48,884 nucleotides of DNA, from positions 1 to 48,884 of the IMG/VR virus record IMGVR_UViG_3300045988_153650, one strand, 5' to 3'. Positions 15,055 through 34,885 of the stretch are shown here, piece by piece. A program made the translations under genes and the position numbers. The DNA comes from a virus. Position 1 is the first letter of the stretch. Each line of letters opens with the position of its first letter. The notes beneath the pieces are model-generated. The model saw only the letters and a list, made by a program, of their open reading frames with translations. It ran no database searches and was not told the DNA's origin.

Positions 15055-15846
15055 ATGGGTAAGTTTTTAGATTTAACAGGTAAAAGATTTGGATATTTAG
15101 AAGTTTTACATAGAAATGGGGTTGACTCTAATAATGGCAATATTATGTGGAAATGCAAATGTATATGTGGAAACATTAAAACGATGTCAAGTCAATCCCT
15201 TAAAAAATCAAAGACTTGCGGTTGTAAATATGAAGATTTGAGTGGAGTAAAAAGTGGAATATTAACCGCTATAAAGTTTTCCGAGAATAAAAATAGACAA
15301 AACTATTGGCTATGCAAATGTGAATGCGGAAATGAAATAGAAGTCCCAGCCACAAAATTAAGAACTAAAAGAATTTTGAGTTGTGGGTGTAAAAGCGGAA
15401 GGTATTCTCATGGTTTGCGAAACACTAAAATTTATAATATTTGGAATGCTATGAAGCAACGATGTTTAAATGAAAATTTTAAAGATTATCATTCATATGG
15501 AGGAAGAGGTATTTCTGTATGCTATGAGTGGTTAATCTTTGATAATTTTTACAAAGATATGGGAAGCGAATATGTTTCACATATTGAAAAATACGGAGTT
15601 AAAAATACTACTCTTGATAGAATAGATGTTAATGGTAATTATTGTAAAGATAATTGCAGATGGGCAACTGTCGAAGAACAAAGTTTTAATAAGAGGGACA
15701 CTATAAGACTTGAATATGACGGTAAAATTATGACCTTGAAAGAAATATCAATTAAATATAATTTGCCATTAACAACTCTTTATTGTAGATATGAAAAAGG
15801 TCAAAGAGGATATGATTTAATAAGACCTTATAGAACAAAGCTATAA
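15055..15846 (+). CDS. Free-standing HNH-like homing-endonuclease-family protein with tandem zinc-ribbon repeats
   Basis: WKCKCICGN..CGC and WLCKCECGN..CGC repeats, IYNIWNAMKQRC..YGGRGISVCYEW, LDRIDVNGNYCKDNCRWAT; own RBS and flanking gaps. Confidence 0.55.
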   Translation: MGKFLDLTGKRFGYLEVLHRNGVDSNNGNIMWKCKCICGNIKTMSSQSLKKSKTCGCKYEDLSGVKSGILTAIKFSENKNRQNYWLCKCECGNEIEVPATKLRTKRILSCGCKSGRYSHGLRNTKIYNIWNAMKQRCLNENFKDYHSYGGRGISVCYEWLIFDNFYKDMGSEYVSHIEKYGVKNTTLDRIDVNGNYCKDNCRWATVEEQSFNKRDTIRLEYDGKIMTLKEISIKYNLPLTTLYCRYEKGQRGYDLIRPYRTKL

Positions 15847-16518: not shown

Positions 16519-18000
16519 ATGAGCAGTACAGAAAAAATACTTAAAGCTAGGATTCAAGCAATAGATAATTTTACTAAGCCTGTGCAAAAGGTTATATCTC
16601 AAACTAAAGCATTTCAAGCTACTGCAAAAGCAGTAAAACCTTTAGTATTAAAAGCTAAAGATATGGCTAGTAAAGTTATATCTAAAGTAAAAGCACAAGT
16701 AGACAAATTTAAGGCTACTAAATTTGGTCAGTTTGTGCTTAAAGCTAAAGATATGGCTAGTAAAGTTTTGACTAAAGTAAATGGTATGTTACGGTCATTT
16801 GCAAGTAAGGCTTGGAGTGCTACCGTATCAGTAAAAGACAAAGCTTCTAGTGTATTATCAAGTATTCAAGGGAAACTTAGTGCTTTAGCAGTTGGTGCAA
16901 CTGTTATGGTAGGTGCTAAAACTGGATTTAATGAGTTGGCAAATGAGCAAACACAAAAGCTTACTATAAATAGAGTAATCCAAAATACTGGTCAATCTAA
17001 AGAACAAGCTAAAAAGTCAACTGATGAATATTATAAGTATTTAGAAGAATATGCAAATAAAACTCCTTTTGAAACAAGTGCAGTAACTCAATTTGGGGTT
17101 AAGTCTATGATGATGGCAAAAGGAGATATAGACCAAGCTAAAAAACTTACAGACCTTCAAGGAAATGTTAAGGCTTTTGTTGGAGATTTAAGAACTGAAC
17201 AAGAGGTTGCAGAGGCATTTTTTAGTGCTAGTAATAATAATATGGAAGCACTTAACAATATGCTAGGGACTCAATATAAAACTTTTGAAGAAGCTAAAGA
17301 AGGTATTGCCAAAAATCAAGGTGGATTAGTAAATGAAATGTCTACTACTTTAGGTGGTTTAATGTCTACTATAAGTGGTAAAGTTAAAAATAGCTTAAAA
17401 GGTGTAACTAAAGTATTTGCTGATATGCTAAGTGGTAGTATGAGTGGGATAATAGGCTTTATAGATAGTATATCACCTAAAATGGTTGCTATGGCTGAAA
17501 GTGTAAAAGCAGGCTTTGAAGCTTTCTCTAAGTCCGAACAAGCTAGTCAATATATGCAAATATTTAAAACTGTATTTGAAGTTGCTTGGGGAATGATAAA
17601 AAATGTTATAGAAGCAGTAAGACCAGTAGTTGAAGCTATATTTAATTTCATAGGTCAACATTCGCAAGAAATATCTACAATAGTTCAAATGTTTGGGAAT
17701 ATTTGGAGTAGTGTTTGGAAACTTGCAGGAACTCTTTTACAAGGTGCTTGGAGTATATGTGAGCCTATATTAAGTACATTAATCAAAGCTTTAGCTAAAG
17801 TTAGTGGTGCAGTAGAAACAATTTGCAGTTGGTGGAATAAAATGACTGAACTTCTTAAAACTCCTATAAATGCAGTTGTGAACGTAGCGAAAAAAGGTGC
17901 TAGTTGGGTAAGTGATAAGTTAGGATTATCGGAAGGTAGAAACGCATTTGGTAGTGGTAGAATTGCTCGTGATGGAACTGTAAGAACTTTACATGAGGGT
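16519..18000 (+). CDS. Tape measure protein, exon 1
   Basis: Ala/Lys-rich helical repeats (LKAKDMASKV x2); the track ORF runs on into intron sequence to 18036. Confidence 0.8.
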
Positions 18001-19287
18001 AACTTTTTTGCCCCTAGTTACAGAAATGTAGCATAGAAAATCGAGCAAAATCGGTGAAAGCTAAGTTAAAAATGAATAAACTAACTATATTTATGATATA
18101 ATATAAATATAGGATAGTTGAGGAAGTCATGAGCCTTGACGAAAAGGACATTCCGAAGTCCCTTCCTATTTTTTAATATTCGGAAATAAAACTGTCGGAG
18201 GTTTTTAAAATGAATCATTATGTATATGAAGTAACTAATAATATCAATGGAAGAAAATATATAGGCAAAAGAAGTTGTAAATGTCCTATTGAAAAAGATT
18301 TGTATTTTGGTAGTGGAATAGCTATTAAAGAAGCCTTGAAGAAGTATGGAGTTGAGAATTTTTCTAAAGATATTATAAAGACATTCAACACTAGCGAAGA
18401 AGCTTTTAAATATGAAGAATATTTAATATCTAAATTTGATTGTGTAAATGATGTTAAGTATTACAATATGGCTAGAGGTGGAATTGGTGGTGTTGGAACT
18501 TTAGACGGCAAAACCGAGTTAGAAAAATGGGAAATTTATAACAGAATGAAAAACACTTTAAAAGGCAAAATGGCAGGAGAAAATAATCCTATGTATGGGA
18601 AAAGGGGTAAGGATAACCCTAAATATGGGATTCCATTAACCGAACAACAGAAAGAAAGCATAAGTAAATCACTTAAAGGTAAGCCCTTTACTGAAGCCCA
18701 CAAAGAAAATATTAGAAAATCTAGGATAGGTATGAAATTAAGCGAAGAACATAAAAAGAATATAAGCCTAGGTGGTAAAGGAAGAAAAATAAGTGATAAA
18801 TGCAGAAAAGCATTAAGAGAAGCTAATATTAAATCTATTATTCTTTTAAATGATTTATCTATATATGAATCAATAGTAGATGCTATGAAAATTCATAATA
18901 TTGCTAGACAAAGTATAGGGAAAGTATGTATGGGTAAAAGAAATTATGCAGGAATTATAAATAATGAAAAAGCTATATGGATGTATTTAGAAGATTATAA
19001 TTATTGCATAGAAAATTCCATTGATTTTAATAAATATAAAAAAGAAAAATATTATAAATAAAATATAGTTAGGCACTCTAAGGAGTGTCTTTTTAATATG
19101 CTAATACCGAGGTAACTTTATAGATTGCGAAAGGCTATAAAGTACCGTAGAGCGTACCAGTTGAATAAATATAATACTGGCAAGAGTGTTCGATACCCTA
19201 ACGTATAGTCGAGGGTAAAAATGTACGCCCATCTTATGGGAAACTATAAGGAGTAGTAGGATAAAAAGCCTATGAAATAAGAATATG
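18001..19287 (+). mobile_element. Group I intron carrying a GIY-YIG homing endonuclease ORF
   Basis: Exon ends in U, intron ends in G; GGGU pairs with GCCC 10 nt into the intron (P1); several GC-rich stems at 19090-19270; flanking frames join in phase. Confidence 0.7.
18210..19061 (+). CDS. GIY-YIG homing endonuclease (I-TevI-like, NUMOD3 repeats)
   Basis: YVYEVTNNINGRKYIGK..., repeated GxxNPMYGK / HKENI / HKKNI motifs; GGAGG RBS. Confidence 0.85.
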   Translation: MNHYVYEVTNNINGRKYIGKRSCKCPIEKDLYFGSGIAIKEALKKYGVENFSKDIIKTFNTSEEAFKYEEYLISKFDCVNDVKYYNMARGGIGGVGTLDGKTELEKWEIYNRMKNTLKGKMAGENNPMYGKRGKDNPKYGIPLTEQQKESISKSLKGKPFTEAHKENIRKSRIGMKLSEEHKKNISLGGKGRKISDKCRKALREANIKSIILLNDLSIYESIVDAMKIHNIARQSIGKVCMGKRNYAGIINNEKAIWMYLEDYNYCIENSIDFNKYKKEKYYK

Positions 19288-19467
19288 GAAAAAGTTTTAA
19301 CTAAGAGAGAAACTGATGCCTATTTAAAAGGTCAAAATACTCAAGGTGTAAATATAACTATAAATGGCTTAACAGTAAGAGAAGAAGCAGATATAAATAA
19401 AATAGCTAATAAATTAGTTAAAAAGATTAATCAAAGTAAAATGGTATATGCAGGAGGTGCTTATTAA
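19288..19467 (+). CDS. Tape measure protein, exon 2
   Basis: Joins as ...RTLHEG|EKVLTKRETDAYL, restoring the HxGExVLT-type motif common near TMP C-termini. Confidence 0.65.
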   Translation, partial: EKVLTKRETDAYLKGQNTQGVNITINGLTVREEADINKIANKLVKKINQSKMVYAGGAY

Positions 19468-33614: not shown

Positions 33615-34760
33615 GTGATAAAAATAAAGGGTTTTACAATAAGATTATATCCAACTAAAGAACAAGAAGAACTAATGCGAAAGCATATAGGTTGTCAGAG
33701 ATATGTTTATAATTGGGCATTAGCTTTAAATAATGAATTATACAAACAAGAAGGTAAAAAGTATAGTGCAACTGAATTAGGAAAAATACTAACTCAATAT
33801 AAAAAAGAGGTAAAATGGCTTAATGAAGTTTCAAATGCTACATTGAAAGAAGCTATTAGAAATTTAGATAAGGCTTATACTAATTTTTATAAGAAAAAAG
33901 CTAAACTACCTAAATTTAAAAGTAAGAAAACACATAATAATACTTTTTATAGTAGATATGACAAAATAAAATTCTATGAAAATGATACTGTAAACTTAGA
34001 AAAAATAGGTAAGGTTGAATGTAAATCAAGTTATGATATAGATTTTACTAATGTAGCTAAATTCTCTAATCCTAATGTTACTTTTAATGGTAGATGTTGG
34101 GTACTTACATTTAGTATAGATATTGAAAATGAGTATATTGAATTAACTGATAAAGTGTTAGGAATAGATTTAGGAATTAAGCAGTTAGCAATAGTTAACG
34201 AGGAAGGTCTAGATATACCTAATATCAATAAAACTAAAAAAGTTATAGATTTAGAAAAGAAATTAAAGAGATTGCAAAGACAATGTTCAAGAAAATATGA
34301 AAATAATAAGATAGGGGGATATTACCAAAAAACTAAGAACATTGCAAAACTTGAATTAAAGATTAAAAAACTTCATAGAAAACTTAAAAATATTAGATTA
34401 AATCATATTCATCAAGCTACTACTAAGATAGTGAAAATCAAACCGTCTATGATAGTAATGGAGGATTTGAAAGTATCTAATATGATGAAAAATAGACATT
34501 TAGCTAAATCAATTCAACAACAAGGTTTTTACACATTCATAGAACAAATGAGATATAAATGTGAATGGAATGGTATTAAATTCGTTCAAGTTCCAACATT
34601 TTATCCTTCAAGTAAAATGTGTAGTTGTTGTGGCAATATCAAAAAAGATTTAAAGCTATCAGATAGAGTTTATAAATGTGATAATTGTAATTCTATATTT
34701 GATAGAGATAAAAATGCTAGTCAAAATTTAGTTAATTATGGGTTAGAAATATCACTTTAA
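33615..34760 (+). CDS. tnpB: TnpB (IS200/IS605-family OrfB, RuvC-like RNA-guided nuclease)
   Basis: FTIRLYPTKEQ N-terminus; RuvC D (GIDLGIK), E (VMEDLKV), D (FDRDKNAS); zinc finger CSCCGN...CDNCNS. Confidence 0.9.
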   Translation: MIKIKGFTIRLYPTKEQEELMRKHIGCQRYVYNWALALNNELYKQEGKKYSATELGKILTQYKKEVKWLNEVSNATLKEAIRNLDKAYTNFYKKKAKLPKFKSKKTHNNTFYSRYDKIKFYENDTVNLEKIGKVECKSSYDIDFTNVAKFSNPNVTFNGRCWVLTFSIDIENEYIELTDKVLGIDLGIKQLAIVNEEGLDIPNINKTKKVIDLEKKLKRLQRQCSRKYENNKIGGYYQKTKNIAKLELKIKKLHRKLKNIRLNHIHQATTKIVKIKPSMIVMEDLKVSNMMKNRHLAKSIQQQGFYTFIEQMRYKCEWNGIKFVQVPTFYPSSKMCSCCGNIKKDLKLSDRVYKCDNCNSIFDRDKNASQNLVNYGLEISL

Positions 34761-34885
34761 AGATATTCTAATTTGGGTATTCGTTACAACCCACACCAAT
34801 AGGTACAAAGTCTATGGAGTGTTATATCAAACGAAAGTAGCTAAGGCGAAATCGGACACTGTGAAGTAGAAAAGAAACGAAAATC
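34700..34885 (+). ncRNA. Candidate TnpB omega RNA (reRNA) scaffold; boundaries approximate
   Basis: Locally GC-richer, stem-rich noncoding tail right after the tnpB stop (gggtattcgttacaacccacaccaataggtac...ggagtgt...gacactgtgaag). Confidence 0.45.

What the first reader, a model, noticed from the sequence alone, without database searches (positions are those of the whole stretch)
18001..19287. Group I intron with a GIY-YIG homing endonuclease splitting the tape-measure gene
Seen in sequence:
- The tape-measure frame (from 16519) runs into unrelated residues (NFFAPSYRNVA, then stop at 18036).
- About 1.25 kb later, a 60-codon ORF in the right phase encodes a typical TMP C-terminus.
- Joining U18000 to G19288 gives ...RTLHEG|EKVLTKRETD.
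- The exon ends in U, which can pair as GGGU with GCCC 10 nt into the intron (a P1 stem with a G-U wobble). The intron ends in G.
- The flanks (18001-18209 and 19062-19287) are noncoding, GC-enriched and stem-rich: ctttatag/ctataaag with a GAAA-type loop, ccagt/actgg, taccct/agggta, cccat/atggg.
- The central ORF has GIY-x10-YIG and NUMOD3-like repeats.

Established knowledge: phage group I introns commonly carry GIY-YIG or HNH homing endonuclease genes.

Caveat: the splice sites are predicted and could be off by a few nucleotides.
Basis: partly seen in the sequence, partly recalled or inferred. Interest (0 to 1): 0.62.

Follow-up and report, generated by a model that had tools for sequence, protein, structure and literature searches.

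The report
Group I intron splitting tape-measure gene

Summary
Window 18001-19287 is a group I intron of subgroup IA. It splits the tape-measure (TMP) gene between codons ...RTLHEG and EKVLTK....

- **Junction:** more than 100 uninterrupted homologues of 552-553 aa read straight through the predicted junction.
- **Structure:** the roughly 250-nt RNA core (18001-18061 plus 19100-19287) belongs to a family found in more than 119 viral contigs. On 38 members the hand-drawn P2-P9.1 structure, with the P3/P7 pseudoknot, is 90% paired against about 40% in slid controls. 46 of 58 pairs show compensatory changes.
- **Splice sites:** P1 and P10 covary with the exons in relatives inserted at the same site.
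- **Proven relative:** the published self-splicing JCL1032 terminase intron is a family member.
- **Rfam:** it finds no group I core here, but it also misses JCL1032, so that negative carries no weight.
- **Endonuclease:** the 283-aa ORF sits in the P5 loop. Its model folds like the I-TevI GIY-YIG catalytic domain.

Group I introns with homing endonucleases in TMP genes were described in 2008 (Bacillus cereus prophages). This scan has also met them on other DNA many times. This is a new member of a known kind, of low interest.

One side observation may deserve a look: a highly conserved, structured leader precedes the endonuclease gene and is shared with introns that carry HNH genes.

The parts
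16519..18000 (+). TMP exon 1 (494 codons, ends ...CAT GAG GGT)
   Evidence: ORF list; phrog_991 tape measure protein 7.9e-20; uninterrupted 552-553 aa homologues
18001..19287 (+). Group I intron (subgroup IA), 1287 nt. It starts AACUUUUUUGCCCC and ends ...AAUAUG (omega-G at 19287).
   Evidence: Junction set by intron-less alleles; family homology; covariation
17997..18013 (+). P1 and the internal guide sequence. Exon GGGU (17997-18000) pairs with GCCC (18010-18013), with a U.G wobble at the splice site. CUUUUUU (18003-18009) is the P10 partner of exon 2.
   Evidence: Read from the sequence. Compensatory P1/P10 variants occur in same-site relatives: L129 (GACGGU/GCCGUC; GAAAGAG/UUCUUUU) and L136 (GCCGGU/GCCGGC; GAAGCAA/UUGUUUU).
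18017..18036 (+). P2 hairpin GUUACA-GAAA-UGUAGC (18017-18032), followed by the in-frame stop TAG (18034-18036) that halts ribosomes before the core
   Evidence: MFE fold. The stop sits at the same intron position in L129, L136 and L137, as TAA, TAA and TGA.
18041..18061 (+). 5' strands of P3 (UCGAGC 18041-46), P4 (UCGGU 18051-55) and P5 (AGC 18059-61), with A-rich J3/4 and J4/5
   Evidence: P3 is 99% paired and all 6 pairs covary; P4 is 100% paired. An ORF-less copy, L004, joins this piece directly to the 3' half.
18062..19099 (+). Insertion in the P5 loop that holds the endonuclease gene. It is closed by P5a: UUAAAAA (18066-72) with UUUUUAA (19090-96).
   Evidence: ORF-less family members have 3-30 nt at this position. 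Other members carry HNH, LAGLIDADG or GIY-YIG ORFs at the same spot.
18085..18209 (+). Leader of the endonuclease gene: extended -10-like TGATATAAT (18094-18102), a structured segment, and the SD GGAGG (18197-18201)
   Evidence: 96.8% identical to L129 although the protein is only 72% identical. Shared with HNH-bearing introns L063 and phage LY4. RNAalifold finds 13 of 31 pairs compensatory.
18210..19061 (+). GIY-YIG / NUMOD3-type homing endonuclease gene (283 aa)
   Evidence: phrog_314 homing endonuclease 2.7e-43. TIGR01453 group I intron endonuclease 1.3e-12, below its cut-off. The AF2 model's best PDB match is the I-TevI catalytic domain: probability 1.00, TM 0.65.
19071..19096 (+). Terminator-like hairpin (19071-19090) plus a U-run directly after the endonuclease gene. 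The U-run doubles as the 3' strand of P5a.
   Evidence: the hairpin is conserved in L129, L136 and L137
19100..19287 (+). 3' half of the ribozyme core, in order:
- P5' 19100-02; P4' 19106-10.
- P6 19111-14 with 19143-46; P6a 19116-23 with 19135-42.
- P7: G19150, bulged A19151, and GCGUA 19152-56, pairing with UACGC-C 19224-29.
- P7.1 19157-61 with 19176-80; P3' 19188-93.
- P8 19194-99 with 19212-17; P9 19233-39 with 19244-50; P9.1 19256-60 with 19269-73.
   Evidence: blastn to 39 phage records; family HMM 4.6e-37; covariation; MFE fold z = -3.9
19288..19467 (+). TMP exon 2 (59 codons plus stop, begins GAA AAA GTT). GAAAAAG (19288-94) forms P10. The ATG at 19285 belongs to the intron and has no SD.
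   Evidence: phrog_991/16692 TMP C-terminus

Best explanation
Window 18001-19287 is a mobile group I intron of subgroup IA inside the phage's tape-measure gene.

**Inferred mechanism**
1. The late tail transcript contains exon 1, the intron and exon 2.
2. Ribosomes leaving exon 1 read 11 intron codons and stop at UAG 18034-36, just after P2. This leaves the catalytic core free to fold.
3. The guide sequence pairs with the end of exon 1 (P1: GGGU with GCCC, U.G at the splice site) and with the start of exon 2 (P10: GAAAAAG with CUUUUUU).
4. The core forms: P3-P9 with the P3/P7 pseudoknot, and a G-C pair next to a bulged A in P7 as the guanosine pocket.
5. An external guanosine attacks after U18000. 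The freed exon-1 3'-OH then attacks after omega-G19287. The ligated mRNA encodes a 553-aa TMP reading ...LHEG-EKVLT....

**The endonuclease**
The 283-aa I-TevI-like GIY-YIG endonuclease is encoded in the P5 loop with its own -10-like element and SD. It is inferred to cut intron-less TMP alleles of co-infecting relatives, so that repair copies the intron in (homing).

**Shown here:** the anatomy, the exact junction, the conserved and covarying RNA structure, family membership with a proven self-splicing intron, and the fold of the endonuclease model.
**Inferred:** that this copy splices, and that the endonuclease is active and targets this site.
For: 1. **Junction.** More than 100 uninterrupted homologues (552-553 aa, 80-95% identical) read GRIARDGTVRTLHEGEKVLTKRETD across the site. 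DNA of two intron-less alleles reads CATGAAGGG|GAAAAAG and CACGAAGGA|GAAAAAG. The window reads CATGAGGGT|intron|GAAAAAG, so only the intron-bearing allele has the U needed at position -1.
2. **RNA family.** The 3' half matches 39 phage records in unrelated host genes. More than 119 viral contigs carry the core motifs, some without an ORF and others with a 0.5-1.2 kb insert in P5.
3. **Covariation on 38 members.** 90.4% of cells are paired, against 33-41% for slid partners. 46 of 58 pairs have changes on both sides. No shuffle of 500 reaches the observed value on any measure. P3, P6/P6a, P7.1, P8, P9 and P9.1 all covary.
4. **P7 outside the pattern-selected set.** P7 varies with compensation there: GCAUA/UAUGC in L129, L136 and JCL1032, and GAGUA/UACUC in L137.
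5. **P1 and P10.** Both covary with the exon sequence in same-site relatives L129 and L136.
6. **Proven relative.** The JCL1032 terminase intron is annotated as a joined CDS and reported as self-splicing (Riipinen & Alatossava 2004, cited in PMC6669764). It matches the family HMM at 1.1e-25.
7. **Thermodynamic fold.** The MFE fold of the ORF-deleted intron recovers P2, P3, P4, P5, P6, P7.1, P8 and P9, with z = -3.9.
8. **Endonuclease.** phrog_314 2.7e-43, TIGR01453 1.3e-12, and a model whose best PDB match is the I-TevI catalytic domain. It is full length compared with its homologues.
9. **Mobility.** Close relatives lack the intron. A phage with a divergent TMP carries the same intron and endonuclease at the same motif.
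Against: - Rfam's group I model (RF00028) gives no hit, even at E <= 10. It also misses the ORF-less homologue L004 and the proven JCL1032 intron, so this weighs little.
Splicing of this copy is inferred.
- P7 is invariant in the main alignment because the search pattern fixed it.
- P2 scores only 55% paired in the MAFFT alignment, whose 5' end is poorly aligned.
- The endonuclease misses the Pfam and NCBIfam cut-offs, and it has no PDB match by sequence.
Confidence: 0.9

Rival explanations
1. The element is a group I intron by descent, but this copy no longer splices. It would be a decaying element in a defective or plasmid-like prophage, so the TMP is truncated.
For: No RNA data could be obtained. 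The contig is one piece of a draft genome, and its viability as a phage is unknown.
Against: - The window's core scores 128 bits against the family HMM. That is within the range of other members and above the proven JCL1032 intron at 84 bits.
- All helices, the U at -1, omega-G, P1 and P10 are intact.
- The endonuclease ORF is full length, with the family's invariant residues.
- Near-identical copies of the endonuclease (98%) occur in contigs from at least three independent sequencing runs.
Confidence: 0.06
2. The TMP is truly split by a free-standing homing-endonuclease gene, with no RNA splicing. The two pieces would act as separate proteins, or the 60-aa piece would be lost.
For: The Rfam covariance search is negative. 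Free-standing endonuclease genes do occur in this phage, for example the HNH gene at 15055-15846.
Against: - The non-coding flanks form a conserved, covarying group I fold.
- The guide sequence tracks the exon sequence in relatives.
- Exon 2 has no SD, and its ATG is the last three bases of the intron.
- ORF-less copies of the same RNA interrupt genes elsewhere, which a free-standing endonuclease gene cannot explain.
Confidence: 0.02

Closest known systems
Group I introns in tape-measure genes of Bacillus cereus-group prophages (TMP-IVS1, IVS2, IVS3a/b; Tourasse & Kolsto 2008, PMC2504315)
   Same: - Subgroup IA introns inserted in frame in a phage TMP gene, at conserved motifs.
- Some carry a GIY-YIG or HNH endonuclease gene.
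- A stop codon lies early in the intron, before the core.
- Several alternative insertion sites exist in one gene. Here a second site, NVKAFVG|D, is occupied in relatives.
- That paper lists Staphylococcus phage ROSA as a relative of its term-IVS2 intron. The window's core is 94% identical to ROSA's intron over 85 nt.
   Different: The host is different: a gut phage of a low-G+C Firmicute, whose TMP homologues carry Romboutsia and Peptostreptococcaceae labels. The TMP is a short 553-aa myovirus-type protein, and the insertion site is different (LHEG|EKVLT, 59 codons from the C-terminus).
Lactobacillus delbrueckii phage JCL1032 terminase-large-subunit intron (Riipinen & Alatossava 2004; record EU409559)
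   Same: It belongs to the same RNA family: family HMM 1.1e-25 over nearly the whole 3' half, with the same P3-P9.1 layout and the same GGAUAAAAAGCC loop. It is reported as self-splicing.
   Different: It has no ORF and no P2, sits in the terminase gene, and its P7 is GCAUA/UAUGC instead of GCGUA/UACGC.
Phage T4 td intron with I-TevI
   Same: A subgroup IA phage intron that carries a GIY-YIG endonuclease with a modular DNA-binding tail. The endonuclease has its own expression signals inside the intron. The window protein's model matches the I-TevI catalytic domain best.
   Different: By my recollection the td ORF sits in the P6 loop, whereas here it sits in the P5 loop. The catalytic domain is of the SegE-like branch and is not detectable against I-TevI by sequence. 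The host gene is structural, not a nucleotide-metabolism gene.
Intron in the HK97-gp10-like tail-completion gene of Staphylococcus phages ROSA and vB_SepS_BE28 and of Clostridioides phage phiCDKH02
   Same: These are the nearest sequenced RNA cores, at 78-94% identity over the 3' half. The ORF sits in the same P5 loop.
   Different: They carry an HNH ORF or an unassigned ORF instead of GIY-YIG, and they interrupt a different gene. The records do not annotate them as introns.

Membership tests
Group I intron | The 5' exon ends in U, which forms a U.G wobble with the internal guide sequence (P1) | tested here: met
   U18000 pairs with G18010 within GGGU/GCCC. P1 changes in step with the exon in L129 (GACGGU/GCCGUC), L136 (GCCGGU/GCCGGC) and L137 (GUCGGU/GCCGAC). 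Intron-less alleles have G or A at this position instead of U.
Group I intron | The intron ends in G (omega-G), and P10 pairs the guide sequence with the 3' exon | tested here: met
   The intron ends at G19287. Exon 2 GAAAAAG pairs with CUUUUUU (18003-09), which lies directly 5' of the P1 strand. Compensatory P10 variants occur in L129 and L136. A terminal UG is conserved across the family.
Group I intron | A conserved core of P3-P8 with the P3/P7 pseudoknot and the P4-P6 domain | tested here: met
   90.4% of cells paired against 33-41% for slid partners; 46 of 58 pairs compensatory; 0 of 500 shuffles reach the observed values. P3 is 99% paired with 6 of 6 pairs covarying. The P3 and P7 strands cross, forming the pseudoknot.
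Group I intron | A guanosine-binding P7: a G-C pair next to a bulged nucleotide in the 5' strand | tested here: met
   G19150, bulged A19151 and GCGUA pair with UACGC-C19229. This is invariant in the pattern-selected set, but compensatory variants occur in L129, L136, L135 and L137. That this arrangement is the G-binding pocket rests on established knowledge of the Tetrahymena P7, not on a test here.
Group I intron | Subgroup IA hallmark: an extra helix between P7 and P3' (P7.1/P7.2) | tested here: met
   P7.1 (19157-61 with 19176-80) is 97% paired, and all 5 pairs have changes on both sides. I could not decide between IA1 and IA2.
Group I intron | A match to the curated covariance model (Rfam RF00028) | tested here: not met
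   No hit at the gathering threshold or at E <= 10. The model also fails on the ORF-less homologue L004 and on the proven JCL1032 intron. The test is therefore insensitive for this family and does not exclude membership.
Group I intron | Uninterrupted homologues of the host gene correspond to the ligated exons | tested here: met
   More than 100 homologues of 552-553 aa are colinear with the 553-aa spliced product. The DNA of two of them was checked.
Group I intron | GTP-dependent self-splicing, or ligated exons in RNA | not testable with these tools
GIY-YIG homing endonuclease (I-TevI-like) | A GIY-YIG catalytic domain | tested here: met
   - Sequence evidence is suggestive only: Pfam SegE_GIY-YIG 23.6 bits against a cut-off of 25, and TIGR01453 48.2 bits against 56. 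phrog_314 scores 2.7e-43.
- In the AF2 model, residues 1-85 have pLDDT above 88. Its best PDB matches are the I-TevI catalytic domain entries 1LN0 and 1MK0: probability 1.00, TM 0.65, covering the whole domain.
GIY-YIG homing endonuclease (I-TevI-like) | Conserved motif residues: two Tyr about 10 residues apart, a catalytic Glu and an Asn | tested here: inconclusive
   Y6, Y17-I18-G19, E69 and N86 are invariant in 30 homologues. The Y6...Y17 spacing equals that of I-TevI as I recall it. I could not assign the catalytic Arg, and no residue-level structural superposition was made.
GIY-YIG homing endonuclease (I-TevI-like) | A modular DNA-binding tail (NUMOD3 or helix-turn-helix type) | tested here: inconclusive
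   This sequence scores NUMOD3 at E = 1 only. Homologues score for PF07460, PF22083 and PF07453. The second-best structural match is I-HmuI, at probability 0.95 but low TM.
GIY-YIG homing endonuclease (I-TevI-like) | Cleaves the intron-less allele near the insertion site | not testable with these tools
   This needs an enzyme assay.

The most novel reading that the evidence does not exclude
The roughly 125-nt leader in front of the endonuclease gene (18085-18209) may be a conserved regulatory RNA/promoter cassette of its own.

- It carries an invariant TGnTATAAT.
- It has a covarying multi-hairpin fold. One hairpin loop, (U)AUCCGA, is complementary both to a downstream UUCGGA and to the UCGGAGG Shine-Dalgarno sequence.
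- It is 97% identical to L129's leader although the proteins are only 72% identical.
- It also precedes unrelated HNH endonuclease genes in other introns (L063 and Bacillus phage LY4).

It could be a switch that limits endonuclease translation to certain transcripts or times, and that moves between introns together with, or independently of, the endonuclease gene.
Probability: 0.3. Interest if true: 0.45.

Novelty: new member of a known kind. Interest (0 to 1): 0.2.

Why it matters
**For annotation.** The phage's TMP is one 553-aa protein, not a 505-aa gene plus a 60-aa orphan. The 283-aa ORF is an intron-borne homing endonuclease.

**For RNA family libraries.** This intron family is abundant in phages of Firmicutes, in crAss-like phages and in cyanophages (more than 119 viral contigs). 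It includes an experimentally proven member, yet Rfam's group I model does not see it. Split structural genes of this type will therefore keep being misannotated until a dedicated model exists. The alignment and structure produced here could seed one.

**For biology.** This is a further example of selfish introns targeting conserved motifs of essential phage structural genes, which is already established.

Tried and rejected
- **Rfam scans.** I scanned the whole window at gathering thresholds and 17900-19400 at E <= 10. Neither gave a group I hit. Controls on ORF-less L004 and on JCL1032 were also negative, so I discarded the result as uninformative rather than as evidence against.
- **PDB sequence searches with the endonuclease.** Neither the single sequence nor a 30-sequence profile matched I-TevI. 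Only the fold comparison made the link.
Rejected in favour of the conserved P9, CUUAUGG/CUAUAAG.
- **My first P7 drawing.** I drew six contiguous pairs, GCGUAC/GUACGC. I corrected this to five pairs plus G-C across a bulged A, because C19157 belongs to P7.1 in the family.
- **Further intron copies.** blastn and a family HMM found only this one in the window and in the 3.1-Mb genome.
- **Other mechanisms.** An intein, translational bypass and a group II intron were considered and dismissed. The insert has stop codons in the TMP frame, its own SD-led ORF, no reverse transcriptase, and a group I fold.
- **Own covariance model.** I did not build a calibrated model, because about 290 positions would exceed the tool's time limit. 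I used nhmmer profiles and pair counting instead.
Full report
**1. Observation**

The window is one whole 48.9-kb contig of a 3.1-Mb draft genome. Its ORFs are laid out like a complete myovirus-type phage genome.

The TMP ORF (16519-18036, phrog_991) ends ...RTLHEG-NFFAPSYRNVA-TAG. A 283-aa ORF follows at 18210-19061. After a further 226 non-coding bases comes a 60-codon ORF (19285-19467) that matches TMP C-termini. The distance from 18001 to 19287 is 1287 nt, which equals 429 x 3. Joining T18000 to G19288 gives a 553-aa product. G+C is 37-38% in the two non-coding ends, against 27% in the ORF and in the window as a whole.

**2. The junction is exact**

I searched with residues 380-553 of the spliced product. 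The search found 360 proteins. The best 120 are mostly 552-553 aa long, 80-95% identical, and cover the query end to end. Eight that I read all contain GRIA(R/K)DGT(V/I)RTLH(E/Q)GEK(V/I)LT without interruption.

Two intron-less alleles were fetched as DNA:
- L008 reads CATGAAGGG|GAAAAAG.
- L009 reads CACGAAGGA|GAAAAAG.
- The window reads CATGAGGGT|intron|GAAAAAG.

Shifting the boundaries by one base would restore the L008 sequence equally well. Homologous introns in Staphylococcus phages also end at the same aligned G. Only the intron-bearing allele has U at -1.

**3. The flanks are a conserved RNA**

Megablast and blastn of the 3' flank hit 39 phage records. In these the sequence sits in unrelated genes:
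- an HK97-gp10-like tail-completion gene in Staphylococcus phages ROSA and BE28 and in Clostridioides phage phiCDKH02;
- terminase genes;
- other TMP genes;
- crAss-like phages and a cyanophage.

It often lies directly after an HNH or LAGLIDADG ORF.

One record, MT835539 (locus L004), has the window's 5' piece (18035-18062) and 3' piece (19098 onwards) only 3 nt apart. This defines 18062-19099 as an insertion in a hairpin loop.

A pattern built from three invariant core motifs found more than 119 viral contigs. In part of them the P4 motif lies 55-70 nt before the P7 motif, so they have no ORF. In others the distance is 0.5-1.2 kb.

**4. Structure**

From the window sequence I drew the following elements:
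- P1: GGGU with GCCC.
- P10: CUUUUUU with exon 2 GAAAAAG.
- P2, P3, P4 and P5, with the insertion in L5 closed by a 7-bp P5a.
- P6 and P6a.
- P7: G, a bulged A, and GCGUA pairing with UACGC-C.
- P7.1, P3', P8, P9 and P9.1.

P3 and P7 cross, which gives the group I pseudoknot.

I tested this on a MAFFT alignment of 37 ORF-less family members plus an ORF-deleted construct of the window (A2). The results:
- 90.4% of cells are standard pairs, against 33-41% when the 3' partners are slid by 1-3 columns.
- 46 of 58 pairs have compensatory changes.
- The covariation score is 0.541, against 0.166 in shuffles, and 0 of 500 shuffles reach it.
- P3 is 99% paired and all six of its pairs covary.
- P7.1 is 97% paired, P9.1 97% and P8 92.5%.

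There are two limitations. P7 and P4 are almost invariant, and for P7 this is because the search pattern fixed it. P2 scores poorly (55%) because the 5' ends are badly aligned.

Outside the pattern-selected set P7 does vary, and it does so with compensation: GCAUA/UAUGC in L129, L136 and JCL1032, and GAGUA/UACUC in L137.

An energy-only fold of the ORF-deleted intron recovers P2, P3, P4, P5, P6/6a, P7.1, P8 and P9 by itself. The MFE is -64.1 kcal/mol and z = -3.9.

**5. Splice-site helices follow the exons**

Relatives of the endonuclease led to phages with the same intron at the same TMP motif but with different exon sequences.

| Locus | Exon 1 end / guide (P1) | Exon 2 start / guide (P10) |
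|---|---|---|
| Window | GAGGGU / GCCC | GAAAAAG / CUUUUUU |
| L129 | GACGGU / GCCGUC | GAAAGAG / UUCUUUU |
| L136 | GCCGGU / GCCGGC | GAAGCAA / UUGUUUU |

These are compensatory changes in both P1 and P10.

L137 carries a related intron and endonuclease at a second TMP site, NVKAFVG|D, with P1 GUCGGU/GCCGAC. Relatives P0011 and P0020 (331-332 aa) start MDLRTE, exactly at exon 2 of that second site.

In all four introns the TMP frame stops at the same intron position, just after P2 and before P3. The stop codons are TAG, TAA, TAA and TGA. Tourasse & Kolsto describe this property for phage introns in general.

**6. Link to a proven intron**

The terminase large-subunit CDS of Lactobacillus phage JCL1032 is annotated as joined from two pieces. 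The intervening sequence has the same layout and the same conserved loops. It matches the family HMM at 1.1e-25 over positions 7-180 of 182. The window scores 4.6e-37. JCL1032's introns were reported as self-splicing by Riipinen & Alatossava (2004), which is cited as the proven case in PMC6669764.

Rfam finds nothing in JCL1032 either.

**7. The ORF**

Sequence evidence:
- phrog_314 homing endonuclease, 2.7e-43.
- TIGR01453 'group I intron endonuclease', 1.3e-12, which is below its cut-off.
- Pfam SegE_GIY-YIG, just below its cut-off.
- Homologues carry GIY-YIG, NUMOD3, NUMOD1 and I-HmuI-NUMOD-like domains.

An AlphaFold model built from a 30-sequence alignment has mean pLDDT 77.6. The N-terminal 85 residues and residues 210-280 are above 88-90. 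Its best PDB matches are the I-TevI catalytic domain entries 1LN0 and 1MK0 (probability 1.00, target-normalised TM 0.65), followed by I-HmuI.

Y6, Y17-I18-G19, E69 and N86 are invariant among the homologues.

Across the intron family, the same L5 loop holds LAGLIDADG, HNH and GIY-YIG ORFs. This is the known pattern of independent endonuclease invasions into one intron lineage.

**8. Mobility (inferred)**

- Phages with a 95%-identical TMP lack the intron.
- A phage with a 586-aa TMP carries the same intron, endonuclease and exon 2 at 80.7% identity. The alignment starts only 12 nt before the intron, so the upstream exon 1 is not alignable at the DNA level.
- 98%-identical copies of the endonuclease occur in contigs from at least three independent runs.
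- One intron-less-TMP relative (L009) carries a family intron in its gp10-like gene instead.

**9. What is known, and novelty**

Group I introns (IA1 and IA2) in TMP genes were described for Bacillus cereus-group prophages. Some of them carry GIY-YIG or HNH genes and they occupy several sites per gene. The same paper lists JCL1032 (TMP), phiSH1 and ROSA as relatives (Tourasse & Kolsto 2008, PMC2504315).

This scan's own notes list 53 findings in at least 47 genomes that hold the same key words. Several follow-ups on other DNA reached the same conclusion, for example e1-3009489, e1-3459159 and e1-1939441. None of these bears on this window's sequence.

The verdict is a clean, well-supported new member of a known kind.

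**10. Limits**

Splicing and endonuclease activity are inferred. I did not decide between subgroups IA1 and IA2.

**11. Side observation**

The 125-nt leader of the endonuclease gene is more conserved than the gene itself. It is 96.8% identical to L129's leader, while the proteins are 72% identical. It carries an invariant TGnTATAAT and a covarying fold, with 13 of 31 pairs compensatory among six sequences. It also precedes HNH genes in other introns. It may regulate endonuclease expression, but this was not pursued further.

Noticed in passing
window 18085-18209: The leader of the intron-borne endonuclease gene is 96.8% identical to L129's leader although the proteins are only 72% identical. 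It has an invariant extended -10 (TGATATAAT, 18094-18102) and a covarying multi-hairpin fold. A loop, UCCGA, is complementary both to a downstream UUCGGA and to the SD UCGGAGG. The same leader precedes unrelated HNH genes in L063 and in the terminase intron of Bacillus phage LY4. It may be a shared regulatory cassette.
   Followed up: partly
window 15055-15846: A free-standing HNH endonuclease gene (phrog_374, 2.6e-80) lies between the tail-tube and tail-chaperone genes. It is absent at that spot in relatives L008 and L009. It is 38% identical (3e-38) to the HNH encoded inside the homologous intron of Staphylococcus phage ROSA. No intron core lies near it.
   Followed up: partly
window 34811-34872: An Rfam RAGATH-18 RNA hit (70.9 bits, 2.7e-12) lies just downstream of the 381-aa ORF 33615-34760.
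   Followed up: no
window 19071-19096: A terminator-like hairpin plus U-run sits inside the intron, directly after the endonuclease gene. It is conserved in L129, L136 and L137. The U-run also forms the 3' strand of P5a, so it may end endonuclease transcripts, help close the P5 loop, or both.
   Followed up: partly
L009:1-400 (also L001, L002, L005): A close relative with an intron-less TMP carries an intron of the same family, with a 267-aa ORF, in its HK97-gp10-like tail-completion gene. Staphylococcus phages ROSA and BE28 and Clostridioides phage phiCDKH02 carry one at the same kind of gene. Their records annotate two fragments and an 'HNH endonuclease' (or even a 'dUTPase') rather than an intron.
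   Followed up: partly
L137:2821-4097; proteins P0011, P0020: Relatives of this phage have a second occupied intron site in the TMP, NVKAFVG|D(L/M)RT (near residue 229 of the window's TMP). It holds a related intron and a 45%-identical GIY-YIG gene. Many 331-332-aa 'proteins' in the databases are exon-2 ORFs of that split.
   Followed up: partly
L004, L135 and the window: Rfam 15 (RF00028 and all other families) detects no member of this intron family, including the experimentally proven JCL1032 terminase intron. Yet the family occurs in more than 119 IMG/VR contigs.
   Followed up: yes
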